From Minisyncoccota bacterium (GTDB lineage Bacteria > Patescibacteriota > Minisyncoccia > UBA6257 > GWB1-50-10), in assembly GCA_020059915.1 (NCBI GenBank), contig JAGVBB010000003.1, forward strand, positions 233,625 through 297,624: DNA of 64,000 nucleotides, written 5' to 3'. Within the stretch, counting starts at the first letter, position 1. Every line of letters starts with the position of its first letter. Made by a program: the position numbers and the translations under genes. The notes beneath the pieces are model-generated. The model was not told the DNA's origin, did no database searches, and saw nothing but the letters and a program-made list of their open reading frames with translations. Below, piece after piece: positions 32,319-55,487 of the stretch.

Positions 32319-32328
32319 AAATTCAATG

Positions 32329-32450
32329 TAAAATTCTAATTTCTAAGCCCTAAATTCTAAATAATATCAAAACTCAAATATTCAAATGACTTTTGATAAT
32401 TCTTATTTTGGATTTGTTTAGGGTTTCTATATTAGTGCTTAGGGTTTTTA
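32329..32450. repeat. diverged copy of the palindromic repeat family (lacks the GC-rich core hairpin)
   Basis: ccctaaattctaaataatatcaaaactcaaatatt ... ggatttgtttagggttt ... attagtgcttagggttt aligns with elements at 51921, 52674 and 54303. The tail supplies the stop codon of 32432..32968. Confidence 0.55.
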
Positions 32451-34290: not shown

Positions 34291-34300
34291 ATTTTAATAA

Positions 34301-34410
34301 ATTCTAATTTCTAAATCCCAAATTCTAAATAATATCAAAACTCAAATATTTAAATTAACTTCTTCAATTCGTGTTTTTTAGGATTTCGATATTAGTGCTT
34401 AGAGTTTATT
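34301..34410. repeat. diverged copy of the palindromic repeat family (lacks the GC-rich core hairpin)
   Basis: Very similar to the copy at 32329-32450. The tail gtttatttaa supplies the stop of the CsaA-like gene. Confidence 0.55.
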
Positions 34411-35678: not shown

Positions 35679-38600
35679 TTAATATGTTATTTTGACCATT
35701 CCATGACCAGAACGAACCCCTGCGGTATTTGTTTGGTTTGTTCCGGAATTATAACTTCCACCTCCACCGCCATATGTTGAGCTTCCGCTCCATGATGCCG
35801 AAGTTCCACCTCCAGAATAACCTCCCCCTGCTCCTGGTCCACCGAGCTGTCCACCACCACCGCCACCATATCCACCATAATTTTCTGTTGTGTAACAACT
35901 ATTTCCTGTTCCTCCTGCCCCACCATTTAAATAACTCTGTCCTCCATATGCGGTTGCGCAATGAGTTCCTCCATCCATTCCATTTGTACTAAATCCTCCT
36001 CCCGCTCCTCCTGCATAACTTTGGTTTGAACTACCACCTGATCCCGCAGACCCTCCAGTTCCAGTACCTGCACAACTAATCGTTACTCCAGAGGTTCCCG
36101 ACTGACCATTTCCCTCAGACGCTGTGCGCGTACATGATGTCCCATAACTTGTTGCTGGACCACCACCACCGCCACCTGCGATAATGAGTGGTACATTTCC
36201 TGTTTGTTTCACAACAAACGTTCCACCGCCACCACCATTTTCATTTCCGTGTGCTCCACCATTGCTACCTCCTTGTTGACCAACGAGAATTTTAATAACA
36301 TCTCCAGCAGTAAGAGATACTGTTCCCTTAACATATGCACCAAGTCCACCTGTTAAACTATTACTACCTGTACCACTTCCACCCTGTGCCCCCCACGCTT
36401 CAATAATATATGATCCCGTTGTCGAAGCAGTAAATGTTTGCAAACTTCCCGTTCTTCCCGTGGTAATATTATTAAATGTTACCGTTATTGGATTTGTTGG
36501 GGTTGCTGTTACCTCAGAACTCAATCCACTTTCCCCTGCTGGATTTACTGAAGAAACCTTATAGTAGTAAGCCATTACACTCAATCCAGAATCTACATAC
36601 GAAGTTGAGGTCACATTAGAGGTTAATAAAGAATATCCACTTCCCGATGTTGTGCTTCGATATACATTATATGAATATGCAAGCGCACAAGAATTTCCTG
36701 TTGGTGCAGTCCATGAAATAGTATTTGAAAGAGCACCAGGCGTTGCTGTTGCACCCGTTGGCGCACTAGGAGCAGAAAGTCCATTTGGACAAGATGCTGC
36801 GTAACAAACCAATTCTGTATTTGATCCAATATTTTGTGTCGATGTCGCCATACCCCACCCCGCAGGACAGGAAAGTGATTGATTTGCTCCTTTAGCACGC
36901 AATGTAAATGATTGAAACGGAGCATCGGTGCGATAACAAATCTGCTCGTTTACATCAACCCCATCTATAGTCACCGTACTTGTTGGTGCAGAACTCCATC
37001 CTGATGGGCAAGAAGGGGCGGGAGAAGAAATTATTTTATAGCAGGCACTATCATAGGTCGTTTGCGAGCTATATCTCTTTCGCGTGTAATTTTGGTTTGT
37101 ATATTTTGTATATCCTGTTGGACAGGTAATACTATTTGAAGCAGCATTTGCATTGTATACAAAAGTATCAGATACCCCAGAATTTGTATTATTTATACAT
37201 GCACCTGTATATGCCTGATATCCAGAAATTGGAGCATTATAATATACCGCAGAGGTATTACTCCAATTGGTAAATCCACTCGGACAACTCACTACTGAGG
37301 TTGGATTTCCCAATCCCGTATATGATTCCCAAATAAATGATGGAGGATTTCCTTTATAACACGCACCTGAATAAACCTGATCAATGCCTGCTGGGCTATA
37401 AACATACTGTCCTACCCATCGTGTATATCCTGTTGGGCAGGTCACGCTCGTTGCTCCCGAATATGATTTCCATGTAAATACATCATTTGTTGCACTTGCG
37501 TTATAACACGCTCCCGAATATGACCAATAATCATATGTATAGTCATATTGCGAACACGTAGGCTCATCAACACAATATTCATACCATGCTGGTCTCCATC
37601 GCGCATAACTGTTATCGTACCAGTTAGTAAGTCCTGTTGGGCAGGTTTGCGTACTAGCGGTATATGCACTCCAAGAAAATGACGGTAATGTCGTTCCCTT
37701 ATAACACACACCGTCATATTTGCTAGTACTATTGTCCGGATCTACATCCCACCATGTGTTAACCCATCGTGTATATCCTGTTGGGCAGGTCACACTTGAT
37801 GGTGATGGTGATCGCCACTTAAATAAATCGTTTGATGCTGATGTTGGATAACACGCACCTGTATATGCAACATATCCACTCTCACTTGAACTATAATATG
37901 CATTAGAACTCCACCACTTGGTATATCCCTCTGGACAAGTTATGTAGGTATCAGGACTATAATTGTTTACTAATTGCCAAGTAAATGATCTTGGGTCCGA
38001 GCTCCCCGATCGCAAATACATAACATTGTCACTTGCACCTAACGCCACCACCTGTGCGTTATATATCTGCCATGTTCCATTACCACTCGCATCCACTGTG
38101 AGAACATACCCCGGCGTTGCCGATGTCCCCAACTGGAATCCATTCATTTTTATTGTCCCATACACATCAAGTTTTGCTGTTGGGGTTGAGGTTCCAATAC
38201 CAACATTCCCCGTATTAATGGAATATAAATTTGAACCTGATGCATTCCAGAGTGAATATGCAGAAGAATCTGCATATGATTTTGTTGCAACATGTCCCAC
38301 CGCTGTTGGTGATCCAACAATGACAGCCCCATCAAACTGTCCCGCGCCAACAACATCAAGAGTATATGCGGGCGTTGTTGTTCCAATACCAATGTTCCCC
38401 GCATTGGTCATAGTCAATCGATATGCCGAAGTGTTGTTATTATAAAAATGCAAAGCACTTCCTGCAGAAACCAATTCCCATGATGATCCCGTTGAAAGCA
38501 AGCGAATGGAACCACTACTCCCCCCTGTTTCAAATGTCGCTAATACTCCCGATGGTGGTGCAAGATTATATAAATGAAATGGATATGTTGGATTGGTTGT

Positions 38601-39047
38601 ACCAATACCAACGTTTGTCCCGTTATTAAACAAAAGAGAGGTTGCAACCCAACTCGAACCACTATGACGAAGTGTTTGCCCCGATGTACCACTCGCTATT
38701 CCCCCACCAACCATTGAATCAACATAACTTTTTGTCACTGCGTGCGTTACTCCTGTTGGGGACCCAACAAACACCGGAGAAGAAAAATATCCCTTCCCTG
38801 TTACTTGCAATTTATACGACGGATTGGATGTATATATTCCAATATTTCCCGTGGAATTAATTACAAATAAATCATTTGATCCAAAGATAATATCATTTCC
38901 ACTTCGTTCATTTAATTTCAAAACCGCACCAGTGTTTTCAATTGAAGAAGTATTTTGATCAATAGTGATATATTGTGCGGACACAAACTCCCCCACAAAG
39001 AATGTGAGAATAATTATTATGAAGATGATAAATGATTTATATTTCAT
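35679..39047 (-). CDS. giant secreted modular surface protein 1 (tail-fibre-like repeats, two-Cys tandem repeats, Fn3, ALK/LTK-type glycine-rich domain)
   Basis: Signal peptide, N-terminal NIGIGTTTPAYTLDV / ATKSYADS repeats, about 9 repeats of V.CPTGYT.W...Y.GACY, an Fn3 (YNVYRSTTSGSGYSL), and a C-terminal WGAQGGSGTG...ILVGQQGG...GGGGGTFVV...IIAGGGGGG glycine-rich domain. Confidence 0.8.
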   Translation of the reverse strand: MKYKSFIIFIIIILTFFVGEFVSAQYITIDQNTSSIENTGAVLKLNERSGNDIIFGSNDLFVINSTGNIGIYTSNPSYKLQVTGKGYFSSPVFVGSPTGVTHAVTKSYVDSMVGGGIASGTSGQTLRHSGSSWVATSLLFNNGTNVGIGTTNPTYPFHLYNLAPPSGVLATFETGGSSGSIRLLSTGSSWELVSAGSALHFYNNNTSAYRLTMTNAGNIGIGTTTPAYTLDVVGAGQFDGAVIVGSPTAVGHVATKSYADSSAYSLWNASGSNLYSINTGNVGIGTSTPTAKLDVYGTIKMNGFQLGTSATPGYVLTVDASGNGTWQIYNAQVVALGASDNVMYLRSGSSDPRSFTWQLVNNYSPDTYITCPEGYTKWWSSNAYYSSSESGYVAYTGACYPTSASNDLFKWRSPSPSSVTCPTGYTRWVNTWWDVDPDNSTSKYDGVCYKGTTLPSFSWSAYTASTQTCPTGLTNWYDNSYARWRPAWYEYCVDEPTCSQYDYTYDYWSYSGACYNASATNDVFTWKSYSGATSVTCPTGYTRWVGQYVYSPAGIDQVYSGACYKGNPPSFIWESYTGLGNPTSVVSCPSGFTNWSNTSAVYYNAPISGYQAYTGACINNTNSGVSDTFVYNANAASNSITCPTGYTKYTNQNYTRKRYSSQTTYDSACYKIISSPAPSCPSGWSSAPTSTVTIDGVDVNEQICYRTDAPFQSFTLRAKGANQSLSCPAGWGMATSTQNIGSNTELVCYAASCPNGLSAPSAPTGATATPGALSNTISWTAPTGNSCALAYSYNVYRSTTSGSGYSLLTSNVTSTSYVDSGLSVMAYYYKVSSVNPAGESGLSSEVTATPTNPITVTFNNITTGRTGSLQTFTASTTGSYIIEAWGAQGGSGTGSNSLTGGLGAYVKGTVSLTAGDVIKILVGQQGGSNGGAHGNENGGGGGTFVVKQTGNVPLIIAGGGGGGPATSYGTSCTRTASEGNGQSGTSGVTISCAGTGTGGSAGSGGSSNQSYAGGAGGGFSTNGMDGGTHCATAYGGQSYLNGGAGGTGNSCYTTENYGGYGGGGGGQLGGPGAGGGYSGGGTSASWSGSSTYGGGGGSYNSGTNQTNTAGVRSGHGMVKITY
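36830..38000 (-). repeat. intragenic tandem array of ~135-nt units encoding the two-Cys repeat (CPTGYTxW...GACY)
   Basis: Recurring near-identical DNA words such as ggtatatcctgttgggcaggt at 37425, 37780 and others. Confidence 0.7.
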
Positions 39048-39050: not shown

Positions 39051-42000
39051 TTATTTTATCCACAGCCGTCCATATCCTCTTGACGATGCTGAACCACATC
39101 CATTTACTGGATACGAATCATATCCTGTATATGCCTGATATGGATATTGATAGTGTGGACCATTACATATACCACTTGGATTTCTTCCTCCAACTGCTGG
39201 ACTGTTCCCTGTATACCCCGTACCAACTCCAGAACAGTAATTATCTCCACAAGCAGCTAAACAATCTGGATTTGTTGGATAACTTGCATAGTTGGTCCAA
39301 CTTACCCACCATCCACGTTGCGTTGTATCTCTATCGTATGAGTTCCAAGTCCAGTTTGTACGATCATGGAATGTGGTTGCGTTATATGGCGAACAATAAA
39401 ATCTAAATATTCCCAAACTTCCCGAGGCGGTTCGAATTTGATTTATAACAGTATCAGAAAACTTCCCCTTATCATCTTGCGTCCATGTTGATTTTGTACT
39501 CCACCCACTCTGTTCTGTTGTTTGTCTATGATTTGCATTTGCTGAATCAATTCCTGCAACAAGTGTCCAACCCCCTCCATCGGTGGTCATATCACAATAT
39601 GCTCGAAATGCATCACTTGTTGAACCACCATTTGGATCTATCCAATAAGTACCATCAGTCTTTGATGGGAATGCAGTCTTAATCACCTTGCAAGAAATTC
39701 CAGCAAAAGTCTGTGAGGATCCATCTGGGTCTGAAAGCGGAACAGCACTCACCTCACTACTTTGTGCACTTTCACCACCACTGTTTACTGAAGAAATTTT
39801 GTAATAATATGTCGGATAAGTTCCACTCCCTAAAATCTTAAATTCTATTTCTGCAATTCCACCATTGTTATATCCAGTACCAGAGACCGCCACAAGTTTG
39901 TAATAACGATATGCAGTAGTGTTTGCACTTAAGTCACCAAAATAACTTGGTTGTGCAACTCCACCCGGCGCAGTATATACCGCAGAAATATCAGTCCACG
40001 TTGAATTATTTGTTGATCCTCGCCACTGATAATTTCCCGTTTGTGCACCACCGCCACCCCACGTATATCGAGCCTCTGTAATAGTAATTGCAGAACCAAA
40101 ATCAAATGTTATTGATTGTCCAGAAAATGAAGTTGTTTGGAGATATGCGATAGTCCCCGTATTTCCATCAATCATGTTTGTATTTGGATACCCAGAATAA
40201 CTCCATAAATTATCTGAGAGAAGTGTAATAAGTGATGTTCTATTTCCAATGCTTTGTGTTTGAGTATATGTTGATGTTGCGCTTGTGGTGATTGAAGTAT
40301 CTGAATACGTTGTACCTGCAATACCACTCGTAACAAGTGAGAATCCAGATCCAGAGGTTAAACTTCTATATATATTATATGTTTCTGGTTGCGAGCATAC
40401 TCCTCCACCACTTGGTGCTGTCCAAGAAAGATTTATACTTTGACTGGCTCCGGTAGCGGATGGACTAGTTGGAACATCCGGTGCAGTCATCCCCTCCGAG
40501 CAAGCAAAATAGCAGGCAAGTTCCGTGTTCCCTGCAACGTTGGTTGCGGACATTGCTGGAGCCCACGCAGCACTTGGACAAGAAATAGATTGCGAAGATC
40601 CTTTCTTTGTTATCTGCATTGTTGTCACCGCCGAATCAGTTTTGTAACAAATTTTCTCTTTTACATCATATCCATTGGTAAGTACTGTCTGACAAGTTGT
40701 TTCACTCCATCCAGATGGGCAGGATGGACACACTGTTGCATCAAACGTCTTGTAACAGGTTGCGTCCCATGCTTGGACACTAGATCCTCGTTTGTATGCA
40801 AATTGTCCGCTTTTATATTTTGTATATCCTGTTGGGCAAGTTACCGTGTCCGACGCCACCATCGTCTCAATATTAAATGCATCAGCACCAGTTGCAGTGT
40901 TACTTATACATGCTGCAGTATATGCATCATAACTATTTCCAGTTCTCCATTTTGCATTTGCATCATACCACTTGGTATATCCTGTTGGGCAGGTATTATT
41001 TGCCATATTCCCACCAGTGTATGCATCCCAAATAAATGATGTCGGATTCCCTTTATAACAAACTCCAGAATAATACTGGTTATTTCCTGGACCATATACA
41101 ATGTCACTTGGATACCACTTAGTGTATCCTGTTGGGCAGGTAAGAGAGGTTGGAGAGGTTGATTTCCATGGAAAATAGTCATTTGTTGCACTTGTGTTGT
41201 AACACGCTCCAACATAGCTATAGTATCCAGATCCAGAAGAATACCATTGTGCATTTGAATCAAACCATTTTGTATATCCCGTTGGGCAGGTAAGAGAGGT
41301 TGGCGTTCCAAGTCCTGTGTATGATTCCCAATTAAACGCTGTTGTTGGAGATCCTTTGTAACAAACGCCACTATAGTATGCCTGCGAAGAATAAATACCA
41401 TAACCATAATACGAGGTATTAACCCACCTCGTATATCCTGTTGGACATACTACCGAATTTGGAGATGTCATTGTCTTCCATGAAAAAATATCAGTTGTTG
41501 TATCCGCGTTATAACACGCCCCCTCATACGACACATTTCCCGAAAGGTCCGCATACCAATATGCATAACTCTGATCAAACCATTTTGTATATCCCGTTGG
41601 GCAGGTTACTGACGTGGGACTATTTGTTTCCCATGTAAATGAATTCATAATAAGTGTTATTGGGTTTCTTAATTTCATAACACTCGTTCCATATGCATTC
41701 CCAACATTTGCAATTGACTGCCATGTACCAACACCACTTGCATTTGCAATTAAAATATTTCCTGCAGTTGCGGAGGTACCCAACTGAAATGAGGACATTT
41801 TCACCGTTCCCATAACATCAAGTTTTGCCCCTGGTGAATTTGTTCCAATGCCAATGTTTCCTGATGGAACGGTATATGTGTTAGTACTTGATGACACCCA
41901 CATTGAAACTGCAAGTGCATCAACATATGCCTTGCTCGCCGCATGCCCCGCCGCGGTTGTGGTACTTATAAGAACAGGAGAAGAAAAATTTCCCGTTCCC

Positions 42001-42713
42001 GCAACATGGAGTAAAGACGCAGGAGATTGTGTTCCAATACCAACATTTCCTGCATTTGTTATTGTCGTACGATATTGTGATGTATTGTCATTATAAAATT
42101 GCAGACCGGATCCCGTCGCACCAATTTGCCACGATGATCCTGTTGATCCAATTTTTATAAATGAAGCGGATGTTCCTGTTTGAAAACGAGAAAGCACGGC
42201 AGATGTTCCGCTATATACATGCAGTGGGGCTGTTGGGTTTGTTGTTCCAACACCAATATTTGTTCCATTGTTGTAAAGTGTTGAATCACCAAACCATCCA
42301 GATCCAGTATTTCTTAATGTCTGCCCAGATGTTCCTGAACCAACTCCTCCTGCAATAGTAAAGTCTGCATAGGATTTTGTTGAAATATCAGAAGCGATTT
42401 GCGGTTCTCCAATGGTGAGTGGATTTACAAAATATCCAGCACCCTGCACATGCAATGGGTATTGAGGATTTGTTGTGTTTATACCAATCTTATCCCCTGA
42501 AGTATTTATATATATGATTCCGTCTCCTACTGAAATATCATATGCACTCCGTGCATTCAAATACAATGGTGCATACCACGATTCAACAGAATTACTATCA
42601 ATGGTAACGCTTTGTGCATACACTGATGAAAACGAAAACACAAAACACAACATAAATATGCTCAAAAATAAAATTCTATATGTACTTATATGCGTTTGTA
42701 TGTTCATTTTCAT
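39051..42713 (-). CDS. giant secreted modular surface protein 2 (tail-fibre-like repeats, two-Cys tandem repeats, Fn3, discoidin-like domain, C-terminal fibrinogen-related domain)
   Basis: Likely start MKMNIQTH... (signal peptide); the ORF track start at 42752 overlaps the upstream gene. The C-terminus DGTYWIDPNGGSTSDAFRAYCDMTTDGGGWTLV is a strong FReD signature. The mid-region ITFDFGSAITITEARY...YQWRGSTNNSTWTDIS is discoidin/F5-8C-like. Confidence 0.8.
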   Translation of the reverse strand: MKMNIQTHISTYRILFLSIFMLCFVFSFSSVYAQSVTIDSNSVESWYAPLYLNARSAYDISVGDGIIYINTSGDKIGINTTNPQYPLHVQGAGYFVNPLTIGEPQIASDISTKSYADFTIAGGVGSGTSGQTLRNTGSGWFGDSTLYNNGTNIGVGTTNPTAPLHVYSGTSAVLSRFQTGTSASFIKIGSTGSSWQIGATGSGLQFYNDNTSQYRTTITNAGNVGIGTQSPASLLHVAGTGNFSSPVLISTTTAAGHAASKAYVDALAVSMWVSSSTNTYTVPSGNIGIGTNSPGAKLDVMGTVKMSSFQLGTSATAGNILIANASGVGTWQSIANVGNAYGTSVMKLRNPITLIMNSFTWETNSPTSVTCPTGYTKWFDQSYAYWYADLSGNVSYEGACYNADTTTDIFSWKTMTSPNSVVCPTGYTRWVNTSYYGYGIYSSQAYYSGVCYKGSPTTAFNWESYTGLGTPTSLTCPTGYTKWFDSNAQWYSSGSGYYSYVGACYNTSATNDYFPWKSTSPTSLTCPTGYTKWYPSDIVYGPGNNQYYSGVCYKGNPTSFIWDAYTGGNMANNTCPTGYTKWYDANAKWRTGNSYDAYTAACISNTATGADAFNIETMVASDTVTCPTGYTKYKSGQFAYKRGSSVQAWDATCYKTFDATVCPSCPSGWSETTCQTVLTNGYDVKEKICYKTDSAVTTMQITKKGSSQSISCPSAAWAPAMSATNVAGNTELACYFACSEGMTAPDVPTSPSATGASQSINLSWTAPSGGGVCSQPETYNIYRSLTSGSGFSLVTSGIAGTTYSDTSITTSATSTYTQTQSIGNRTSLITLLSDNLWSYSGYPNTNMIDGNTGTIAYLQTTSFSGQSITFDFGSAITITEARYTWGGGGAQTGNYQWRGSTNNSTWTDISAVYTAPGGVAQPSYFGDLSANTTAYRYYKLVAVSGTGYNNGGIAEIEFKILGSGTYPTYYYKISSVNSGGESAQSSEVSAVPLSDPDGSSQTFAGISCKVIKTAFPSKTDGTYWIDPNGGSTSDAFRAYCDMTTDGGGWTLVAGIDSANANHRQTTEQSGWSTKSTWTQDDKGKFSDTVINQIRTASGSLGIFRFYCSPYNATTFHDRTNWTWNSYDRDTTQRGWWVSWTNYASYPTNPDCLAACGDNYCSGVGTGYTGNSPAVGGRNPSGICNGPHYQYPYQAYTGYDSYPVNGCGSASSRGYGRLWIK
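40500..41630 (-). repeat. intragenic tandem array encoding two-Cys repeats (paralogous to 36830-38000 and 44820-45900)
   Basis: ggtatatcctgttgggcaggt / ggtatatcccgttgggcaggt words at about 40975, 41125, 41275, 41440 and 41590. Confidence 0.7.
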
Positions 42714-42723
42714 AGTTTTTATA

Positions 42724-45700
42724 TTATCTTGTACATGTAATGTTGACCGCATAGTCAGTTGAGTTCTGATTATTACACTCGCTCAAATATCCAGAAGGAG
42801 GTGTTGGTGCAGCAGCACATTGTGTTGGCTGGGAACCAAAACTCCAATTTCCTGATTGTCCATCATACAATGTTACATTTGAAGAGGTACTCCAAGCACA
42901 ATCAATTGCTGTTCCAGAACCAATCGCATATCCATTTGGTTGTGAACCCCAAACACCATTTCCAATACTATGATATGCGGCATAAGAGACGCCGGAATTT
43001 GCTACTGTACATGAAGAATACCCAAGCTGTTGTCTGATCTGCGTCAATACATTGGAATCCCACTCACTATTCATCATACGAGCAATAAGTTTGTGTTGTG
43101 GATTTGACCAACTCGCAAGACGCGTGAATTGTGCATCCACACAAATTTCCTGGTCTCCATTATCAGTGACGCTACTACAATATATTCCATACTCACAAGG
43201 ATTTGATCCATATAAGAGTGGTGGAATTGAATTATATCCTTGCTTGAACAAAGTCAACGCAGGCGCTGCGGGTATTGCACCAAATTCTGCCGTCTGTGTA
43301 CTTTCTCCAAATCCGTTAATCGCAGAAATTTTATAATAGTATGTTGTACCATTGGTGACTCCTGTATCTAAATAATAATTTCCTGTTGATGTTGCATAAA
43401 GTGAAAAACCACTTCCCGACGTTAAGCTTCTAAAAATTTTGAAATAGCTTGGAATTGCTGTACAACTAATACCTCTACTCCATGAAAGAGCAACACTATT
43501 ATTTCCTGCGGTTGATGTTGCGGAAGATGGTACAGCTGGAGCCTGAGAAACTGCACTCGTACATTTTGTAACAACAACCTGTCCCGCACCCGATCTATTC
43601 CCCGCAATATTTGATTGATTTATTCCATCATTATATGATCCACCGCCACCTCCACCATATGTACTTCCCCAACTTCCACCTGCTCCACCACCAGAATATC
43701 CTCCTCCTCCACCGGCAGTAAGTCCACCTGCTCCACCACCGCCAAATCCACCAACATTGCCACCCCATCCGGACCATACGCTTGCTCCATTATCTCCACC
43801 ATATCCTCCATTTAAGAATTTTGAACCACCATAGTCATACCACGCAGAACTTCCACCTCCATCAACATTAGTAGTTCCATCTGTTCTCCATCCCGCTCCT
43901 CCTCCAGAATAATTTGCACGACCGCCACCCATTCCATTTGTTCCTCCAGCACCCCCACCAGATGATTGCCCAGCAGTTCCATTAATAGTTGTCTGTCCAC
44001 CACTTGCTGACCCACCCCCATTTGTACCAGGCGCGCCCCCACCACCACCGGCAACAATAATCGGCAAATTATTTGAATCAACTACAAAGGTTCCCCCTCC
44101 CCCTCCATTTCCTCCATTATATTGGACACCATTGTTTGCCGGGCTACCTTGTTGTCCAACAAGTATTGAAATTACCTCACCCATTCTTAAATACACATCG
44201 CCCTGCATTTTTGCTCCAAAACCACCCGTGTAACTCATTGAACCCCCCTGTGCTCCATACGCAGCTATTGTATAAACCCCAGTTTCAGGAACAGTCCATT
44301 TCTGTGTTCCTGTTGCAACATCAAAAAATGATGAGTTCTCATCCCAGGAAGTTGAGTATGCAGAACGACATGCAGATATCGTTGGACCAGTTCTTCCAGT
44401 TTGTGAACAATTAGTAAATGTATGTGTAGTAAATGAATATAAAACATTCGGTGTCGTGACACTAAATTCATTTGAGGTAGATCCTTCTCCGGCTATATTC
44501 GTACCGGAAACCTTATAATAGTAAGTGGTATTTTGTGTTGTTGTCGCGTCGGTAAAAGTAGTCGCTTCAACTCCTGAGGCAATAAGGGAATACCCACTCC
44601 CTGAGGTAAGGCTTCTATATATATTATAAGTATCTGTTGCAGTACATTCAGTTGCACTTGGTGCTGTCCACGAAAGAGCAACTGAAATACCAGAAAGGCT
44701 TCCCGTAAGTGAGGTTGGTGTTAGTGGTAAAGAAAAACTTGAGCAGGCAACATAACAGGCACGCTCTGTATTTCCATTCACATTTGCTGTTGTACCCGCA
44801 CTTGAAAGTCCTGCGGGACAAGAAATTGATTGGTTTGATCCCTTCTTTTGCACTGTAATTGTTTGGATTGGTCCGCCTTGCTTATAACAAACACGTTCTC
44901 CATAATCGCCAAGTGATCCAGAAACAGTGTTACATGATCCAGCCGTCCATCCAGTTGGACACGACTGACAAGTTGCGGCAGGAATTTTATAACACGCACT
45001 ACTGTACGCTGCTTGACCTGAACCGCGGTAGGTGTAATACGAAGAATTCCCCTGCCATTTTGTATATCCGGATGGACAAGCAACAGCATCGGATCCCGAT
45101 GTGGAAAAATATGGAAATGCATCTGCTGCTGTTGCTGAAGAGTTTACGCAGTATCCATTATATGATTGATATGAACTACTATAGGTATAATATTTTGCAT
45201 ATGTTGTGTCATACCAATTTGTGTATCCAGATGGACAGGTCACAGTAGTTGGTGCGTATCCAGTATAAATCTCCCATGGAAGAGAGGATGGTGATCCCTT
45301 GTAGCAAACTCCAGTGTAATAAGTGACCGACCCTGGACCATATGCATAATTTGTTGGGTACCATTTTGTATATCCAGATGGACAGGTCACTGATGCTGGC
45401 GAGGTAGATTTCCATTTGAATACATCCGTGCTTGCAGATGCGTTATAGCACGACCCCGTATAGTTATAATAACCACCCGTTGATGAATACCATTGTGCAT
45501 TTGCATGATACCAAGCGGTATATCCACTTGGACAAGAAATAAAGGTGGTTGGATCTCCACTTCCCGTGTATGTCTCCCACGTAAACGATGATGGTGACCC
45601 CTTGTAGCAAGCACCATTATACCCATTATAAGTAGAATATATTCCCTTTCCTGGATATGATGCATTTGTCCAAGTAGTGTATCCAGATGGACAGGTCACT

Positions 45701-46923
45701 GATGCCGGAGATGAGTATGCTTTCCAAGTGAAGACATCGTCTATTAAGGAGTTTTGATAACAAGTACCAAAATAAGAAGGGTTTCCACTTTCGTCTCCAT
45801 ACCAGTAGGCGTTACCGTGTGACCACAATGAGTACCCCGTAGGACAGGTAAAATAAGTTGAGATAGCACTTGTACGACTTTCAAAAGCAAATGTTTTGGG
45901 ATCTCCGATTGACGAATGTAAAGTTAAAATGGCACTTCCTGGTTTTGAACCACTGGTACCTGGAAGAACTTGCCACGTTCCGACGCCACTTGCATCCGTA
46001 GTAAGAGCATAACCCGCCGTTGTTGAAGTTCCAATTTGAATTCCTGTTGCGCGAACTTTTCCAACTACCTCAAGTTTTGTTGTTGGGTTAGTAATACCAA
46101 TTCCGACGTTCCCAGAGTTCCCAGAGTATAAAGATGTTGATGTTGCGGTCCACACAGAACCGACCAACGAATCAACATATCCTTTTGTCGCAGCGTTATT
46201 TGCAGCAGTTGGTGTTCCTACAGAAAGTGTAGAAAAACTTCCCGTGCCGGCCACATCAAGCAACGACGATGGCGTTGTTGTACCAATCCCAATATTTCCA
46301 GAGTTTGCCATCGTCATCCGATACTGTAGATTGTTCCTATTATAAAATTGGAGCCCACTTGCTGTCGTCCCAAAATTCCAAGAAGCATCAGACCCAATTA
46401 AGTTTAATGTTCCCGCCGTACTTCCACTTTGGAAATAGGTAACAATATTGCCAGATGGTGCAGAATTATATACATCAAATTTTATTGTTGGACTTATCCC
46501 TATACCAACCGCACCACCATTATTGATAATTAAAGAAGATGCAACCCATCCAGATCCATTATTATGCAATGTCTGGTTTGCACTTCCCGATCCAACACCT
46601 CCACCGAGAATGGAATCAACATATCCTTTTGTGGCAGCATTGCTCGCAGCAGTTGGAGATCCCGCACCAGTGCTTGTGGAAAAAACAGCACTCCCAACCA
46701 CGTGTAACGGATATGTTGGTACAAGGGTTCCAATCCCTATATATCCATTTCCACGAGAAATAAACAAATCACCGTTTCCGATGTTTATGTTATATCCACT
46801 CGTCTTATTGAATCCAAGTCCCGATGCATCACTTTGAATATCGGTGTCGCCAAAAAAAATACTTGCACTTACTACCAATGGAAGTAGACATAAACCTATG
46901 GTTAGTATGAGAAAGCGTTTCAT
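42724..46923 (-). CDS. giant secreted modular surface protein 3 (tail-fibre-like repeats, two-Cys tandem repeats, Fn3, ALK/LTK-type glycine-rich domain, second Fn3, Cys-rich C-terminal domain)
   Basis: Signal peptide MKRFLILTIGLCLLPLVVSAS. Same module order as protein 1, plus an extra C-terminal ~190-aa domain with 8 Cys. First gene of a four-gene minus-strand operon. Confidence 0.8.
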   Translation of the reverse strand: MKRFLILTIGLCLLPLVVSASIFFGDTDIQSDASGLGFNKTSGYNINIGNGDLFISRGNGYIGIGTLVPTYPLHVVGSAVFSTSTGAGSPTAASNAATKGYVDSILGGGVGSGSANQTLHNNGSGWVASSLIINNGGAVGIGISPTIKFDVYNSAPSGNIVTYFQSGSTAGTLNLIGSDASWNFGTTASGLQFYNRNNLQYRMTMANSGNIGIGTTTPSSLLDVAGTGSFSTLSVGTPTAANNAATKGYVDSLVGSVWTATSTSLYSGNSGNVGIGITNPTTKLEVVGKVRATGIQIGTSTTAGYALTTDASGVGTWQVLPGTSGSKPGSAILTLHSSIGDPKTFAFESRTSAISTYFTCPTGYSLWSHGNAYWYGDESGNPSYFGTCYQNSLIDDVFTWKAYSSPASVTCPSGYTTWTNASYPGKGIYSTYNGYNGACYKGSPSSFTWETYTGSGDPTTFISCPSGYTAWYHANAQWYSSTGGYYNYTGSCYNASASTDVFKWKSTSPASVTCPSGYTKWYPTNYAYGPGSVTYYTGVCYKGSPSSLPWEIYTGYAPTTVTCPSGYTNWYDTTYAKYYTYSSSYQSYNGYCVNSSATAADAFPYFSTSGSDAVACPSGYTKWQGNSSYYTYRGSGQAAYSSACYKIPAATCQSCPTGWTAGSCNTVSGSLGDYGERVCYKQGGPIQTITVQKKGSNQSISCPAGLSSAGTTANVNGNTERACYVACSSFSLPLTPTSLTGSLSGISVALSWTAPSATECTATDTYNIYRSLTSGSGYSLIASGVEATTFTDATTTQNTTYYYKVSGTNIAGEGSTSNEFSVTTPNVLYSFTTHTFTNCSQTGRTGPTISACRSAYSTSWDENSSFFDVATGTQKWTVPETGVYTIAAYGAQGGSMSYTGGFGAKMQGDVYLRMGEVISILVGQQGSPANNGVQYNGGNGGGGGTFVVDSNNLPIIVAGGGGGAPGTNGGGSASGGQTTINGTAGQSSGGGAGGTNGMGGGRANYSGGGAGWRTDGTTNVDGGGSSAWYDYGGSKFLNGGYGGDNGASVWSGWGGNVGGFGGGGAGGLTAGGGGGYSGGGAGGSWGSTYGGGGGGSYNDGINQSNIAGNRSGAGQVVVTKCTSAVSQAPAVPSSATSTAGNNSVALSWSRGISCTAIPSYFKIFRSLTSGSGFSLYATSTGNYYLDTGVTNGTTYYYKISAINGFGESTQTAEFGAIPAAPALTLFKQGYNSIPPLLYGSNPCEYGIYCSSVTDNGDQEICVDAQFTRLASWSNPQHKLIARMMNSEWDSNVLTQIRQQLGYSSCTVANSGVSYAAYHSIGNGVWGSQPNGYAIGSGTAIDCAWSTSSNVTLYDGQSGNWSFGSQPTQCAAAPTPPSGYLSECNNQNSTDYAVNITCTR
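44820..45900 (-). repeat. intragenic tandem array encoding two-Cys repeats
   Basis: Repeated tgtatatccagatggacaggtcac-type words. Confidence 0.7.
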
Positions 46924-48190: not shown

Positions 48191-50641
48191 TTATTTACAT
48201 AAATAGGTGCCACCAATACTTCCAGAGATATTTCCACTATAGTTCACAAAAGCAGTACATTCTACTGCGGAAGTGAAAACACGAAAGTCTGTTCCAATTT
48301 GACAAACTGTTGTCTGCCCCACATCACCACATGGAAAAATTTGAGAACCGGCCGTACAACCAACATTGGAACCAGAGTAACAAGTTGATCCACCTGGCAT
48401 TCGATACCAAGCATAAAAAAGACTTCCAGGAGCATATTGTGTTCCAGCAGACGAAGTTATAGCTCCATCACAATTATAATCAAAACTTCCATCACCACGG
48501 TTTGTAGAGAATGAAGAAGCTTGTCCAGGTCGCGCGTTTGCATTTGAATCATAACAGTCAGAATTATTTACAACATATCCAGCTGGTGGTGTTGGACTTG
48601 CTGAAGTAGTCGAAACTGAAGGATTTCCATATCCATCGCCATCTACATCACGATAGTAGGTATATGAGGGGGTGACGGTAAGCGTTGTGTTATATGTTTG
48701 TGATTCTGAACTTCCAGTAAACCCAATATTACTCACAGACATAGTAACAGAAAGATTGTATGTTCCCGGTGTTGCGCCCGCAGGAATAATAAAATCAACT
48801 GGGTGTGAGGCAGTGCCCCCCGCGGCTACATAATAACTACTCGGTCCACAATTCGGAAAGTTGTAACACGTCGTTCCCGAAGGAAGTCCACTAATTGAAG
48901 AGACAGTAAGTGGATATGAAACTGGATCACCACTCAAATCAGAACGTGTATGTGTAAACCCACCACTAACAGTTCCACCAACCGGAGCACTTCCCCCTGA
49001 AAATGAACCGGAAATACAATTTCCATAATTCGCACCCGCGTTCCCATCATTACAGTCTCTTGAATCGGTTGTGTATCCAGATGGAGCGGAATTTCCATAA
49101 CAAACACTTGTTGCCGCATCGGAATACGGATAACTTAATGTTGCCTTTCCACCATATCCATCACCATCAGCGTCCGGATAAAATGTTCCATTTCTCCACT
49201 TAGAAGCATCGGACGACGCACAATCTGAATTGTTATTTGAACACCAACCAGTTGTTATACAATCCCATGCTCCTCCATCATACCCAATACAAAATGGTTG
49301 AAGACTTCCAGCTCCATATCCATCATGATCCGAATCTAAATATTTTTGAACAATTCGCCAAACACCAGCGGACGTATCATCACAATCTGTCCCTAAAGAT
49401 GGATAGGTTGTGTGATATGGGCACGAAGTTGCGCAATATGACGAACCACTCCCAACAGTATATCCATCGGTATCATTATCTGTATAGCAGGTTCTATATG
49501 AAGAAACTGAATAATTATAATCATCGCAATCACTTCCCGGAGAAGCAGAAACACCAGGATTTGAAGAGCCTCCACAAAGATATCCATAATTACTCCCATA
49601 CACTCCATCTCCATCATTATCTAAATACCCTCCCCAATCTTGATAAGTCCAATAATCACTATCATTACAATCGCTTCCTGGACTGGTATTGCCAGCTGGG
49701 AGTGACGTACCAGAACAAATTGAACTTTGACTCGGACTATTATACCCATCCCCATCATTATCTGCATATCCACTCAAATATTGCCATACAGTTGCCGACC
49801 CATCATTACAATCAATATTAAACGAAGTAAGTGCTGACTTTCTTACTCTTCCTCCAGCACTACTCGTATATTGAGTGCTATTTGATGGGTATCCATCACT
49901 GTCTGCATCGCTCATATATAAATCACCCTGTTGGATACTTCCTCCAGATCCCAACACAATTTTTCCTCCGTTGCTCAACGTGATTGACTTCCCCGCATTC
50001 CAAACAAACGTACCATTTACTGTGAGTGTCGCATTTGCATCAATAGCAACATTTCCGTTATCAACCCCATCAACACCACTGATGGTACACGACGCACCAG
50101 CATTGTTCGTCGTCATACTCCAATTTCCTGAAAGGGCTATACCGCACGCATCTGACCATGCAATATCAAAAAAATCTGAATTACCCGCATTGTCTTCTGC
50201 AACAAAACGAGTGGTATATCGCGTGTCATGTGTATCTTCAACAATCCAACTTCCCCTCCAAATATTTGATCCCTCATTATTAAGCGCTACCTCTTGTGTT
50301 TTTGTATCAGTAGTAATAACTGCTTTTACAGACTTAATACCAGACTCTGCAGAAACTTCAATCATAAACGTCTGCATGTCCCCCAAATGAACATCCGGAG
50401 GATCTATCTCCCCTTTTATAAATTTGATAGCATTCTCATCTGCAGATGCAACACTAAATTCATATATACCCTGTGGCAATGTCCACTCTTTTCCATCTTT
50501 ATTCACCAAAATGCGATCTTTTTGTTCAATAGCACGCTTTCCAAAAAAAGAAGGGAGAGAAAGAAATGCAATCACAAAAACCGCGAAAAAGAACACGATG
50601 AGTCCTGCAATATGCGGTTTTTCCTGCACGAATTTTTTCAT
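48191..50641 (-). CDS. membrane-anchored surface protein with MopE-like Cys/Asp repeats (DxDxDGYG calcium-binding-type motifs)
   Basis: 816 aa with an N-terminal TM and about 8 repeats of C.D.D....PG..E.CDG.DNDGDGY (DADSDGYPS, DNDGDGYNS, DVDGDGYGNPS). Confidence 0.65.
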   Translation of the reverse strand: MKKFVQEKPHIAGLIVFFFAVFVIAFLSLPSFFGKRAIEQKDRILVNKDGKEWTLPQGIYEFSVASADENAIKFIKGEIDPPDVHLGDMQTFMIEVSAESGIKSVKAVITTDTKTQEVALNNEGSNIWRGSWIVEDTHDTRYTTRFVAEDNAGNSDFFDIAWSDACGIALSGNWSMTTNNAGASCTISGVDGVDNGNVAIDANATLTVNGTFVWNAGKSITLSNGGKIVLGSGGSIQQGDLYMSDADSDGYPSNSTQYTSSAGGRVRKSALTSFNIDCNDGSATVWQYLSGYADNDGDGYNSPSQSSICSGTSLPAGNTSPGSDCNDSDYWTYQDWGGYLDNDGDGVYGSNYGYLCGGSSNPGVSASPGSDCDDYNYSVSSYRTCYTDNDTDGYTVGSGSSYCATSCPYHTTYPSLGTDCDDTSAGVWRIVQKYLDSDHDGYGAGSLQPFCIGYDGGAWDCITTGWCSNNNSDCASSDASKWRNGTFYPDADGDGYGGKATLSYPYSDAATSVCYGNSAPSGYTTDSRDCNDGNAGANYGNCISGSFSGGSAPVGGTVSGGFTHTRSDLSGDPVSYPLTVSSISGLPSGTTCYNFPNCGPSSYYVAAGGTASHPVDFIIPAGATPGTYNLSVTMSVSNIGFTGSSESQTYNTTLTVTPSYTYYRDVDGDGYGNPSVSTTSASPTPPAGYVVNNSDCYDSNANARPGQASSFSTNRGDGSFDYNCDGAITSSAGTQYAPGSLFYAWYRMPGGSTCYSGSNVGCTAGSQIFPCGDVGQTTVCQIGTDFRVFTSAVECTAFVNYSGNISGSIGGTYLCK

Positions 50642-51889: not shown

Positions 51890-51920
51890 ATCTATAGAAT
51901 TAGTATAACACACTGCAATA

Positions 51921-52080
51921 AACTCTAATATCTAAAAACTAAATCCTAAACAAACCTGTCTGCCGATAGGTAGATTCAAATGACCAAAACTCAAAATATT
52001 TAGAACATTTGGATTTTGATATTGTTTAGAGCTTAGCCTGCCTGTCCGGTAGGCAGGAATTAGTGCTTAGAGTTTAATAA
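51921..52080. repeat. palindromic IVS-like repeat element, copy 1 (upstream of 50648..51889)
   Basis: aaactctaatatctaaa...caaaactcaaaatatttagaacatttggattttgatattgtttagagcttag CCTGCCTGTCCGGTAGGCAGG aattagtgcttagagtttaataaaa; the core hairpin is at 52037-52057. Confidence 0.8.
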
Positions 52081-52081
52081 A

Positions 52082-52100
52082 AAAGCCCTTTTGGGCTTTT
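52082..52100 (-). terminator. terminator GCCC-AAAA-GGGC plus U-run for the 52101..52658 gene
   Basis: Hairpin at 52085-52096 abuts the stop codon. Confidence 0.7.
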
Positions 52101-52658: not shown

Positions 52659-52673
52659 AAGTTAATTATAACA

Positions 52674-52818
52674 AAAACTCTAATATCTAAACCCTAAATT
52701 CTAAACAAATTTAAATGACCAAAACTCAAAATATTTAGAACATTTGGATTTTGATATTGTTTAGAGCTTAGACCTGCCTGTCCGGTAGGTAGGAATTCGT
52801 GCTTAGAGTTTAATAAAA
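52674..52818. repeat. palindromic IVS-like repeat element, copy 2 (upstream of 52101..52658)
   Basis: Nearly identical to copy 1. The core at 52773-52793 has one substitution that keeps pairing only as G-U on the plus-strand transcript. Confidence 0.8.
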
Positions 52819-55480: not shown

Positions 55481-55487
55481 ACAGTTT

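What the first reader, a model, noticed from the sequence alone, without database searches (positions are those of the whole stretch)
39054..39750. Fibrinogen-related domain (FReD) at the C-terminus of a bacterial surface protein
The segment GTYWIDPNGGSTSDAFRAYCDMTTDGGGWTLV matches the most diagnostic FReD motif (ficolin/tenascin/angiopoietin: GVYTIyP.....F.VYCDM.TDGGGWTV). A later GWW segment also fits the P-domain. FReDs are overwhelmingly eukaryotic, mostly metazoan; bacterial examples are rare and usually interpreted as horizontal acquisitions used for host-glycan binding.
Basis: partly seen in the sequence, partly recalled or inferred. Interest (0 to 1): 0.75.

Follow-up and report, generated by a model that had tools for sequence, protein, structure and literature searches.

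The report
Fibrinogen-like tip on a Parcubacteria fibre
The motif is real: the last ~228 residues of a secreted, tail-fibre-like protein of a Parcubacteria (CPR) bacterium form a fibrinogen-superfamily domain, but it belongs to a large, already catalogued prokaryotic and phage family and is one of several interchangeable heads on a conserved three-gene fibre cluster, not a rare import from animals.

Summary
Observation confirmed. ORF 39051..42752 (-), 1233 aa, ends in a domain carrying GTYWIDP...YCDMTTDGGGWTLV. It scores 70.9 bits with NCBIfam NF040941 (GGGWT_bact, cutoff 30), 52-56 bits with Pfam COLFI, and 25.9 bits with PF00147 (cutoff 22). The PF00147 hit covers profile positions 14-49 of 221 only.

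- The domain is not rare. There are 72 viral contigs and 5160 protein clusters.
- The nearest relatives are prokaryotic or viral.
- The canonical P (ligand-binding) subdomain is not recognisable.
- The "GWW" lies in an insertion that the nearest relatives lack.

The organism is a Candidatus Parcubacteria MAG. The gene is the middle of three tandem paralogues that share a signal peptide, a tail-fibre-like stalk, Cys repeats and Fn3. Syntenic genomes carry a different head on the orthologous gene.

Best reading: a swappable binding tip of a surface fibre. This function is inferred, not shown. Verdict: a new member of a known kind, of moderate interest.

The parts
39051..42752 (-). Gene B: 1233-aa secreted fibre protein (NCBI RJQ26061.1, annotated 'hypothetical protein'), the middle gene of a three-gene paralogous cluster.
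   Evidence: It is 47-48% identical to paralogues A and C over its first ~800-825 residues.
42615..42713 (-). Probable true start (M14 or M16) and Sec-type signal peptide: MKMNIQTHISTYRILFLSIFMLCFVFSFSSVYA|QS.
   Evidence: Read directly from the sequence. Orthologues P0329 and P0132 begin here and conserve the hydrophobic core and the V-x-A-Q site. The annotated ATG at 42752 would overlap gene A by 29 nt.
41718..42614 (-). Tail-fibre-like stalk with repeated 'GN(I/V)GIGTxxPxxxL(H/D)V' units (about residues 47-345).
   Evidence: The DNA repeat families D2, D4 and D6 are shared with other fibre genes in the window. It is 26-28% identical to repeats of protein 55488..59504, which hits the tail-fibre families phrog_9942 and phrog_18345. 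Distant relatives of this region end in PF13884 Peptidase_S74 or are named 'tail fiber domain-containing protein'.
40503..41645 (-). Six to seven tandem ~50-aa two-cysteine repeats (CPTGYTKW...GACY), about residues 370-750.
   Evidence: Regex positions 384, 436, 489, 539, 588, 639 and 678. DNA repeat families D1, D3, D5, D8 and D12. No Pfam or NCBIfam family matches.
40293..40487 (-). Fn3 domain, N-terminal part (about residues 756-820).
   Evidence: It aligns with the uninterrupted Fn3 of paralogue C and of orthologue P0132. The Fn3 part of paralogue C matches PDB 3mpc 'Fn3-like protein'.
39825..40292 (-). Discoidin / CBM32-like (F5/8 type C) domain nested inside the Fn3 (about residues 821-976).
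   Evidence: Pfam PF22633 F5_F8_type_C_2 scores 28.7 bits against a cutoff of 27.8. The CBM32 modules of AlyQ (7d29) and NagH (2w1q) match at E ~1e-3. The insertion is present in orthologue P0329 and absent from P0132.
39738..39824 (-). Fn3 domain, C-terminal part (TYPTYYYKISSVNSGGESAQSSEVSAVPL). It is the conserved junction before the head.
   Evidence: Conserved in all paralogues and orthologues, immediately before the point where identity collapses.
39381..39737 (-). FReD-like head, conserved half (residues 1006-1124). It contains the A-subdomain disulphide pair C1021/C1053, the YCDMTTDGGGWT motif, the helix KFSDTVINQIR and the strand IFRFYC.
   Evidence: NF040941, COLFI and PF00147 all hit here. 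pLDDT is 80-97. Mean identity to 49 relatives is 51% for domain residues 12-74 and 24% for 75-130.
39078..39380 (-). FReD-like head, variable Cys/Gly/Tyr-rich half (residues 1125-1225, five Cys). It occupies the place of the canonical B-sheet strands and P subdomain, and includes the GWW strand (39306-39314).
   Evidence: phmmer finds no relative in 229 homologues. Identity is 15% and occupancy 0.62 in alignment A4. pLDDT is below 50 for domain residues 172-218. It is unrelated to the same region of the 72%-identical orthologue P0132.
39054..39077 (-). Terminal beta-strand (GYGRLWIK), which returns to the core sheet. This is the family-wide 'h-W/Y/F-V/I-R/K' ending.
   Evidence: pLDDT is 91 and the model has a strand at residues 232-238. 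The same ending is found in most of the GTDB and viral ORFs.
42724..46923 (-). Paralogue A (1399 aa): the same stalk, Cys repeats and Fn3, then an ALK-type glycine-rich domain, a second Fn3 and a Cys-rich head of unknown family.
   Evidence: Its last 205 aa are 78.5% identical to the head carried by the orthologue of gene B in locus L154.
35679..39047 (-). Paralogue C (1122 aa): the same stalk, Cys repeats and Fn3, with an ALK/LTK-type glycine-rich domain as its head.
   Evidence: ALK 7lrz scores 29.7 bits at E 3.9e-6 and LTK 7nx0 at E 4.5e-5. phrog_22713 matches at E 3.4e-40.

Best explanation
Residues ~1006-1233 form a fibrinogen-related-superfamily domain of the prokaryotic/phage 'YCDxxxxGGGW' type (NCBIfam NF040941).

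**Anatomy of the head.**
- The core is conserved: the disulphide-bridged A subdomain, the first strands and helix of the B sheet, and the last strand.
- The part that in animal FReDs forms the rest of the B sheet and the ligand-binding P subdomain is replaced by a lineage-specific, cysteine-rich and poorly conserved segment.

**Where the head sits.** It is the distal, C-terminal head of a Sec-exported ~1200-residue protein. That protein consists of a signal peptide, a phage-tail-fibre-like repeat stalk, two-Cys repeats, and an Fn3 carrying a nested CBM32-like module.

**The cluster.** The gene is the middle of three tandem paralogues. The cluster is conserved in related Parcubacteria, and its C-terminal heads are exchanged as cassettes just after the conserved Fn3.

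**Most likely function (inferred, not shown).** The proteins are cell-surface fibres, held in or near the membrane by their N-termini. Their heads bind surface structures, probably glycans or other envelope polymers, of partner or host microbes or of the matrix.
- The conserved half of the fibrinogen-like head would act as scaffold, and the variable half would set specificity.
- The closest functional analogues are phage receptor-binding proteins and the mosaic adhesive trimer fibres of Bdellovibrio.
For: **Shown: domain identity.**
- HMM hits support the family assignment.
- The PDB sequence hits are all fibrinogen-superfamily proteins.
- Foldseek agrees.

**Shown: export.** A signal peptide is visible in the sequence and conserved in the orthologues.

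**Shown: modularity.**
- Paralogues A, B and C are 47-48% identical over ~800 residues and then diverge.
- The three-gene cluster is syntenic in L154 and L156.
- Gene B compared with its L154 orthologue is 58-94% identical per 100 aa up to residue 1000, then 19-25%. The L154 head is 78.5% identical to the head of paralogue A in the window.
- The L156 orthologue keeps a fibrinogen-like head whose first ~80 residues are 72% identical and whose remainder is unrelated.
- Conservation falls across the family along the domain: 51%, then 24%, then 15%.

**Context that favours binding.**
- The same domain is fused to type IV pilin N-termini: P0006 from Paceibacterota, P0314, three of the 50 members of alignment A4, and loci L017 and L022.
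- In most of the GTDB ORFs in which I found the motif it is C-terminal, on signal-peptide, lipoprotein or tail-fibre-repeat proteins.
- It is C-terminal in 72 viral contigs. It matches phrog_10681 and phrog_1325 and cyanophage proteins.
- The same protein carries a CBM32-like sugar-binding module.
- The stalk is homologous to proteins that end in the Peptidase_S74, C1q and YadA domains typical of adhesive fibres.
- Bdellovibrio MAT fibres show the same logic: conserved N-termini with exchanged TNF-like or C-type-lectin tips that bind prey glycans (PMC10769870).
Against: - No ligand, localisation or oligomeric state has been tested.
- The part that would carry specificity is modelled with pLDDT below 50, so no pocket can be described.
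- The canonical calcium and acetyl-binding P-domain motifs are not detectable.
- The matching PHROG families are labelled 'unknown function'.
- No membrane anchor other than the signal peptide was identified, so the protein could be released rather than displayed on the surface.
- The lifestyle of this particular MAG (episymbiont or not) is assumed from what is generally known of CPR bacteria.
Confidence: 0.6

Rival explanations
1. It is a canonical animal-type FReD lectin (ficolin/tenascin/angiopoietin-like, with a functional P-domain pocket), acquired by recent horizontal transfer from a metazoan and used to bind animal host glycans.
Against: - PF00147 covers only profile positions 14-49 of 221, and COLFI and NF040941 both score much higher.
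- The relatives above rank 44 that carry a taxon name are MAG bacteria.
- The family is very large and taxonomically broad in prokaryotes and phages.
- No P-domain motif is found, and GWW lies in a lineage-specific insertion.
- The organism is a Parcubacteria MAG.
- Some prokaryotic members do keep P-domain-like sequence (P0008, P0030 and P0036), but this protein does not.
Confidence: 0.04
2. The domain is mainly an assembly module. In this reading it is a C-terminal trimerisation and registration nucleus for the fibre, as the fibrillar-collagen C-propeptide (COLFI) is for procollagen, rather than a ligand-binding tip.
For: COLFI is the best Pfam hit (52-56 bits). The procollagen I and III C-propeptides are among the top structural matches. 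The domain sits at the C-terminal end of a long, repeat-rich protein.
Against: - The COLFI match is confined to profile positions 19-95 of 233, which is the block shared with all fibrinogen-like domains.
- No collagen Gly-X-Y repeats precede it.
- Orthologous stalks carry unrelated heads, so the stalk does not depend on this head.
- The domain also occurs on pilins and in arrays of up to 15 copies per protein. That does not fit an obligate C-terminal nucleation role.
- Its distal half is hypervariable.
Confidence: 0.12
3. The three proteins are structural envelope or matrix components, such as an S-layer-like coat or biofilm scaffold. The variable heads would reflect antigenic or phage-evasion variation rather than recognition of a partner cell.
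For: They are large, secreted, repeat-rich, cysteine-rich proteins encoded in tandem. Head variability is also what is expected of surface structures under phage or predator pressure.
Against: - The stalk is homologous to tail-fibre and adhesin families.
- The heads are lectin or receptor-type folds: fibrinogen-like, CBM32-like and ALK glycine-rich/TNF-like.
- The same head is used by phages and pilins.
- This rival does not exclude the best explanation.
Confidence: 0.15
4. It is a chance motif match in a low-complexity surface protein.
For: The protein is rich in G, S, T, Y and C.
Against: E-values range from 6.6e-20 to 5.9e-15 with curated HMMs. A fold match is restricted to one superfamily. 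There are thousands of homologues.
Confidence: 0.01

Closest known systems
NCBIfam NF040941 'fibrinogen-like YCDxxxxGGGW domain-containing protein' (GGGWT_bact), a prokaryotic family
   Same: The score is 70.9 bits against a cutoff of 30, over all 46 model positions. Like most members, the domain is C-terminal, lies ~145-220 residues from the CDM motif to the end, and finishes with h-W/Y/F-V/I-R/K. Relatives named by NCBI come from Paceibacterota, Gracilibacteria, Aureabacteria and Diapherotrites.
   Different: NCBI's record for this protein still says 'hypothetical protein'. This copy sits on a 1233-aa tail-fibre-like protein with a nested CBM32-like module. It also has a ~25-residue insertion and a distal half with no detectable sequence relative.
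Animal fibrinogen-related domains (Pfam PF00147: fibrinogen beta/gamma, FGL1, angiopoietins, ficolins, tenascins)
   Different: Only profile positions 14-49 of 221 align. There is no recognisable P subdomain, calcium site or 'NCA...GGWW..C' motif. Sequence identity in the structural alignments is 12-18%.
Intelectins / X-type lectins (human intelectin-1, XEEL)
   Different: The intelectin calcium/diol-binding part cannot be aligned with this protein. The domain here is ~228 residues, against ~280 for intelectin. Membership was not established.
Fibrillar collagen C-propeptide (Pfam COLFI PF01410)
   Different: The match is limited to profile positions 19-95 of 233. No collagen triple-helix repeats lie upstream, because the preceding domain is Fn3.
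Bdellovibrio bacteriovorus mosaic adhesive trimer (MAT) fibres (Caulton et al. 2024, PMC10769870) and phage receptor-binding tail fibres
   Same: Both are ~1000-aa proteins with conserved N-terminal parts and exchanged C-terminal tip domains of lectin or receptor folds (compared). The stalk here is homologous to proteins that end in Peptidase_S74. The same head occurs in phage proteins.
   Different: No fibrinogen-like tip is mentioned in that paper's main text. A trimeric beta-helix architecture was not tested here. The organism is a CPR bacterium, not a predator. The resemblance is functional and architectural, and family membership has not been demonstrated.

Membership tests
NCBIfam NF040941 GGGWT_bact | HMM score at or above the curated cutoff (30 bits) over the YCDxxxxGGGW block | tested here: met
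   70.9 bits, E 6.6e-20, model positions 1-46 of 46, residues 1020-1065.
NCBIfam NF040941 GGGWT_bact | Prokaryotic origin and family-typical layout: C-terminal domain ending in h-W/Y/F-V/I-R/K | tested here: met
   The source is a Parcubacteria MAG. The CDM motif lies 181 residues from the end and the protein ends in LWIK. Most of the GTDB ORFs in which the motif was found (from the 80 loci) show the same layout.
Canonical FReD (Pfam PF00147 Fibrinogen_C) | HMM score at or above the gathering threshold (22 bits) | tested here: met
   25.9 bits, E 1e-5, when the 239-aa domain is scanned alone. It was not listed in the full-length scan at E<=1. This is a marginal pass.
Canonical FReD (Pfam PF00147 Fibrinogen_C) | Match along the whole ~220-residue domain (A, B and P subdomains) | tested here: not met
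   Only profile positions 14-49 of 221 align. By contrast, the prokaryotic relative P0008 also matches positions 118-196.
Canonical FReD (Pfam PF00147 Fibrinogen_C) | A/B-subdomain fold with the conserved N-terminal disulphide | tested here: met
Canonical FReD (Pfam PF00147 Fibrinogen_C) | P subdomain with calcium site and ligand pocket ('D.D...NCA...GGWW..C' region) | tested here: not met
   Residues 96-239 have no sequence relative in 229 homologues. GWW lies in a lineage-specific insertion and a predicted strand. pLDDT is below 50 for domain residues 172-218.
Canonical FReD (Pfam PF00147 Fibrinogen_C) | Binding of acetylated sugars, peptides or receptors | not testable with these tools
   Requires biochemistry.
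COLFI (Pfam PF01410, fibrillar collagen C-propeptide) | HMM score at or above the gathering threshold (26.2 bits) | tested here: met
   52.3 bits in the full-length scan and 55.6 bits for the domain alone, but over profile positions 19-95 of 233 only.
COLFI (Pfam PF01410, fibrillar collagen C-propeptide) | Follows a collagen Gly-X-Y triple-helical region and directs its trimerisation | tested here: not met
   The upstream sequence is Fn3 with a nested CBM32-like domain. No collagen repeats or Pfam Collagen hit were found. Trimerisation is not testable here.
Intelectin / X-type lectin | Fibrinogen-like N-terminal segment plus the intelectin-specific calcium-dependent exocyclic-diol binding region | tested here: inconclusive
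Mosaic adhesive (MAT-like) / tail-fibre-like surface fibres | Conserved N-terminal fibre region with C-terminal tip domains exchanged between paralogues and orthologues | tested here: met
   Identity collapses right after the conserved Fn3, and the head of window paralogue A is found on the orthologue of gene B in L154 (78.5% identity).
Mosaic adhesive (MAT-like) / tail-fibre-like surface fibres | Sequence relationship of the stalk to tail-fibre or S74-terminated proteins | tested here: met
   Relatives of residues 44-830 include many proteins with PF13884 Peptidase_S74 and one named 'tail fiber domain-containing protein'. The related window protein 55488..59504 hits the tail-fibre families phrog_9942 and phrog_18345.
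Mosaic adhesive (MAT-like) / tail-fibre-like surface fibres | Trimeric fibre displayed on the cell surface that binds another cell | not testable with these tools
   No multimer prediction or experiment was available.

The most novel reading that the evidence does not exclude
The conserved three-gene cluster encodes the partner-recognition fibres of a Parcubacteria episymbiont. Its heads (fibrinogen-like, ALK-type glycine-rich, CBM32-like, and an unknown Cys-rich fold) would be shuffled by recombination at the conserved Fn3 junction to retarget the cell. Within the fibrinogen-like head, a second exchange point just after GGGWT would swap the specificity-determining half. More broadly, the animal FReD, intelectin and collagen C-propeptide superfamily would then be an offshoot of a much larger and older pool of prokaryotic and phage receptor-binding tips, rather than the other way round.
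Probability: 0.25. Interest if true: 0.65.

Novelty: new member of a known kind. Interest (0 to 1): 0.38.

Why it matters
How CPR/Patescibacteria recognise and attach to partner cells is largely unknown. A conserved cluster of secreted, tail-fibre-like proteins with cassette-like heads is a concrete, testable candidate for that function.

The result also corrects a common assumption. Fibrinogen-like domains are abundant in bacteria, archaea and phages, almost always as C-terminal heads. That bears on where the animal fibrinogen, ficolin, intelectin and collagen C-propeptide fold came from.

For annotation, RJQ26061.1 can be renamed from 'hypothetical protein' to 'fibrinogen-like YCDxxxxGGGW domain-containing protein'.

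Tried and rejected
1. **Sequence relatives of the distal half.** I looked for relatives of domain residues 96-239 among 229 fetched homologues with phmmer and found none. The P-domain question therefore could not be settled by sequence.
2. **Two AlphaFold2 runs.**
   - The 82-sequence alignment gave pLDDT 63.9.
   - The 50-sequence subfamily alignment gave 72.9 and resolved the GWW strand and the C-terminal strand.
   - Residues 172-218 stayed below 50.
3. **A degenerate fibrinogen-like head on paralogue A?** BLAST gave E 1e-7 between the two C-termini, but the similarity is mostly the shared Fn3 tail (TYYYKIS...) and fades inside the head. Rejected.
4. **Diversity-generating retroelement.** I considered one as the source of variability in the distal half. 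No direct repeat in the 64-kb window involves 39054-39750. No reverse transcriptase turned up among the ORFs I scanned, which were not all of them. Rejected for this window.
5. **tRNA and Rfam scans** of the window found nothing.
6. **The afdb50 fold library** was unavailable.
7. **Literature.**
   - Searches for prokaryotic or CPR fibrinogen-like domains found no dedicated study.
   - Only passing mentions turned up, in phage host-recognition modules.
8. **Phylogeny.** I did not attempt a tree against metazoan FReDs. Only ~60-110 residues are alignable, so a tree would be weakly resolved.
Full report
**1. What is at the coordinates.**
The finding lies in the 3' end of ORF 39051..42752 on the minus strand, which encodes 1233 aa.
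- The quoted segment GTYWIDPNGGSTSDAFRAYCDMTTDGGGWTLV is residues 1034-1065, window 39558-39653.
- The domain starts right after an Fn3 domain, at about residue 1006, and runs to the stop codon (window 39054-39737).
- The same protein is on record as RJQ26061.1, 'hypothetical protein', from a 'Candidatus Parcubacteria bacterium' MAG (GCA_003599675.1, contig QZJB01000066.1).
- The rest of the window is ordinary bacterial gene content: SecDF, TGT, UvrABC and PPDK. No tRNA or Rfam hit was found.

**2. Is the motif more than chance?**
Yes.
- NCBIfam NF040941 'fibrinogen-like YCDxxxxGGGW domain-containing protein' scores 70.9 bits against a cutoff of 30, E 6.6e-20.
- Pfam COLFI scores 52-56 bits against a cutoff of 26.2.
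- PF00147 Fibrinogen_C scores 25.9 bits against a cutoff of 22. This hit appears only when the domain is scanned alone and covers only profile positions 14-49 of 221. The COLFI match is likewise limited, to positions 19-95 of 233.
- Against PDB sequences the best hits are intelectin-1 (36 bits, E 4.7e-8), collagen III C-propeptide, tenascin, fibrinogen beta, tachylectin-5A, FIBCD1 and angiopoietin-2. All cover only domain residues ~12-95.

**3. Fold.**
- The first AlphaFold2 run, on an 82-sequence alignment, gave a mean pLDDT of 63.9.
- A second run, on a 50-sequence subfamily alignment, gave 72.9 and pTM 0.73. In 10-residue blocks, residues 11-130 score 80-97. A strand at 151-157 (QRGWWVS) lies in a block scoring 79. 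Residues 172-218 are below 50. The last two blocks (221-239) score 77 and 91.
- Foldseek gave the same families.

The fold is fibrinogen-superfamily, but the data cannot separate canonical FReD, COLFI and intelectin types. The confidently modelled elements map onto these fibrinogen features:
- the A subdomain: helix, two strands and the Cys1021-Cys1053 pair;
- the GGGWT strand;
- the helix KFSDTVINQIR;
- the strand IFRFYC;
- a C-terminal strand (RLWIK) that returns to the sheet.

**4. The distal half is not a recognisable P domain.**
- Residues 96-239 of the domain have no phmmer hit in any of 229 fetched homologues.
- In an alignment with the eleven nearest relatives, the 'GWW' lies in a ~25-residue insertion that they lack.
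- Identity to 49 relatives falls along the domain: 51% for residues 12-74, 24% for 75-130, and 15% for 131-231 at 62% occupancy.
- Some prokaryotic members do retain P-domain-like sequence. P0008 matches PF00147 positions 118-196, and P0030 and P0036 match in two stretches. This protein and its closest relatives do not.
- The distal half here is rich in Cys, Gly, Tyr and Pro, with five cysteines.

**5. The family is common, not rare.**
- A phmmer search of 1.84 billion cluster representatives found 5160 proteins at E<=1e-3 and 735 at E<=1e-10. Some carry up to 15 copies.
They include:
  - many Myxococcota;
  - Auribacterota, Marinamargulisbacteria and Planctomycetota;
  - the cultured Bacteroidota Marinilabilia salmonicolor, Winogradskyella luteola and Pedobacter alpinus;
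  - Geomonas anaerohicana;
  - Saccharibacteria, Peregrinibacteria and Peribacteria;
  - Nanoarchaeota, Woesearchaeota and Thermoplasmatota archaea.
- In most of the GTDB ORFs in which I found the motif, the domain is C-terminal, 145-220 residues from the CDM motif to the end, and finishes in h-W/Y/F-V/I-R/K. The N-termini of these ORFs include signal peptides, lipoprotein signals, type IV pilin leaders and the same 'GIGTxxP' repeats as here.
- Seventy-two IMG/VR viral contigs carry it, again mostly C-terminal.
- The domain matches phrog_10681 (E 1.6e-12) and phrog_1325 (E 1.6e-9, over residues 12-229).
- BFVD returns proteins of cultured cyanophages (S-CAM8, P-HM2, S-ShM2, P-SSM4) at E<=1e-4 and of Pseudomonas phage PaBG weakly (E 0.059). 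Some are already labelled as fibrinogen or collagen NC1 domain proteins.
- Of 50 subfamily members, 47 pass PF00147 at E<=1e-3, 33 pass COLFI, and three carry the pilin N_methyl motif.
- NCBI already names relatives from Paceibacterota, Gracilibacteria, Aureabacteria and Diapherotrites with this family name.

**6. The protein and its neighbours.**
Gene B has these parts:
- a Sec-type signal peptide; the true start is probably M14 or M16, as in the orthologues;
- a stalk of 'GNIGIGTxxP' repeats;
- six to seven ~50-aa two-Cys repeats (CPTGYTKW...GACY);
- an Fn3 domain interrupted by a CBM32/discoidin-like module (PF22633 at 28.7 bits; AlyQ and NagH CBM32 at E ~1e-3);
- the fibrinogen-like head.

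The flanking genes A (42724..46923) and C (35679..39047) are 47-48% identical to B over ~800 residues and then diverge.
- C ends in an ALK/LTK-type glycine-rich domain (ALK 7lrz at E 3.9e-6; phrog_22713 at E 3.4e-40).
- A has the glycine-rich domain, a second Fn3 and a Cys-rich head of unknown family.

A search with the stalk (residues 44-830) found two close orthologues. It also found many distant relatives that share only the N-terminal third and end in Peptidase_S74, C1q, collagen or YadA-type domains. One of them is named 'tail fiber domain-containing protein'.

**7. Heads are exchanged cassettes.**
- The cluster is syntenic in two related metagenomic genomes, L154 and L156. The order is TPR, A, B, C, a 283-aa protein, a tRNA-binding protein, a DsbD-like protein, a MOFRL-domain protein, then PPDK.
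- The L154 orthologue of B is 58-94% identical per 100 residues up to residue 1000, including the nested CBM32-like module. It then drops to 19-25%.
- The L154 head is 78.5% identical to the head of paralogue A in the window.
- The L156 orthologue lacks the CBM32-like insertion. It keeps a fibrinogen-like head whose first ~80 residues are 72% identical and whose remainder is unrelated.
- No repeat in the window involves the head, so a diversity-generating retroelement is not indicated here.

**8. Interpretation.**
Shown:
- the domain's identity and fold class;
- the presence of an export signal;
- the modular architecture;
- head exchange at an orthologous locus;
- wide prokaryotic and phage distribution.

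Inferred: the proteins are surface fibres whose heads bind ligands on other cells or on the matrix, with the conserved half of the fibrinogen-like domain as scaffold and the variable half as specificity determinant. The inference rests on four observations:
- The family is used as a C-terminal head on pilins, tail-fibre-like proteins and phage proteins.
- A CBM32-like module occurs in the same protein.
- Animal members of the superfamily are known to act as lectins or receptor ligands.
- Bdellovibrio MAT fibres have conserved N-termini and exchanged lectin-type tips that bind prey glycans (PMC10769870).

Marine-phage literature lists fibrinogen-like proteins among host-recognition or tail genes (PMC3909814 and PMC12629253). 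This is weak support.

The main rival is a COLFI-like assembly or trimerisation role. It is disfavoured because orthologous stalks tolerate unrelated heads, and because the domain occurs in pilins and in multi-copy arrays.

**9. Verdict.**
The domain is a member of a known, curated, but experimentally uncharacterised prokaryotic family, in a protein still annotated as hypothetical. The more interesting result is the context: a conserved Parcubacteria fibre cluster with shuffled heads, several of which have counterparts in animal extracellular proteins.

Noticed in passing
window 35682-36500 (-) (C-terminus of paralogue C) and about 43480-44320 (-) within paralogue A: There is an ALK/LTK-type glycine-rich domain in a CPR bacterium. 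ALK 7lrz scores 29.7 bits at E 3.9e-6 and LTK 7nx0 at E 4.5e-5. It matches phage family phrog_22713 strongly, at E 3.4e-40 and 1.9e-38. One viral ORF (L083, 542 aa) combines this glycine-rich domain with the fibrinogen-like head.
   Followed up: partly
window 42727-43341 (-) (last ~205 aa of paralogue A): This is a cysteine-rich C-terminal head with no Pfam, NCBIfam or PHROG match. The same head (78.5% identity) sits on the orthologue of gene B in locus L154, and on gene A in L156 (77.5% over a 400-aa alignment that spans it). This shows head shuffling between paralogous fibre genes.
   Followed up: partly
window 40503-41645 (-); also in paralogues A (about 44950-45850) and C (about 37000-37950): There are six to seven tandem ~50-residue repeats with two cysteines each (CPTGYTKW ... 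GACY). No known family matches. They are visible as DNA repeat families D1, D3, D5, D8 and D12.
   Followed up: no
window 39825-40292 (-): A CBM32/discoidin-like module is inserted into a loop of the Fn3 domain of gene B. It is present in the L154 orthologue and absent from the L156 orthologue and from paralogue C.
   Followed up: partly
window 42724-42752: The longest-ORF ATG of gene B overlaps the 3' end of gene A by 29 nt. The orthologues start about 13-26 residues further in, so the real start is probably M14 (42713) or M16 (42707).
   Followed up: partly
window 51933-52083, 52668-52818, 54296-54446, 55404-55481; also 32326-32409 and 34294-34377: These are conserved intergenic repeat elements of ~80-150 nt (families D7, D9-D11). 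Four of these copies (family D10, near 52040, 52775, 54400 and 55445) contain the hairpin-like sequence CCTGCCTGTCCGGTAGGCAGG or a one-base variant of it. Function unknown.
   Followed up: no
window 55488-59504 (-), 50648-51913 (-), 48191-50641 (-): Two further large secreted proteins carry the same 'GIGTxxP' tail-fibre-like repeats: 55488..59504, which hits the tail-fibre families phrog_9942 (E 1.3e-20) and phrog_18345 (E 8e-15), and 50648..51913. The third large ORF, 48191..50641, has no repeat copy listed and only a weak SpaA_4 hit. The region is dense in fibre genes.
   Followed up: no
proteins P0044, P0308, P0327: Cnidarian proteins score ~80 bits with the profile built from the prokaryotic subfamily: Stylophora 'Veficolin-1', an uncharacterised Montipora protein and an uncharacterised Nematostella protein. 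P0044 matches PF00147 only over profile positions 10-47. The direction of any transfer is unknown.
   Followed up: no
proteins P0006 and P0314; loci L017 and L022: These are fusions of a type IV pilin N-terminal methylation motif with the fibrinogen-like domain, in Paceibacterota, in Saccharibacteria and in a bacterium not classified further. This suggests pilus-displayed versions of the same head.
   Followed up: partly
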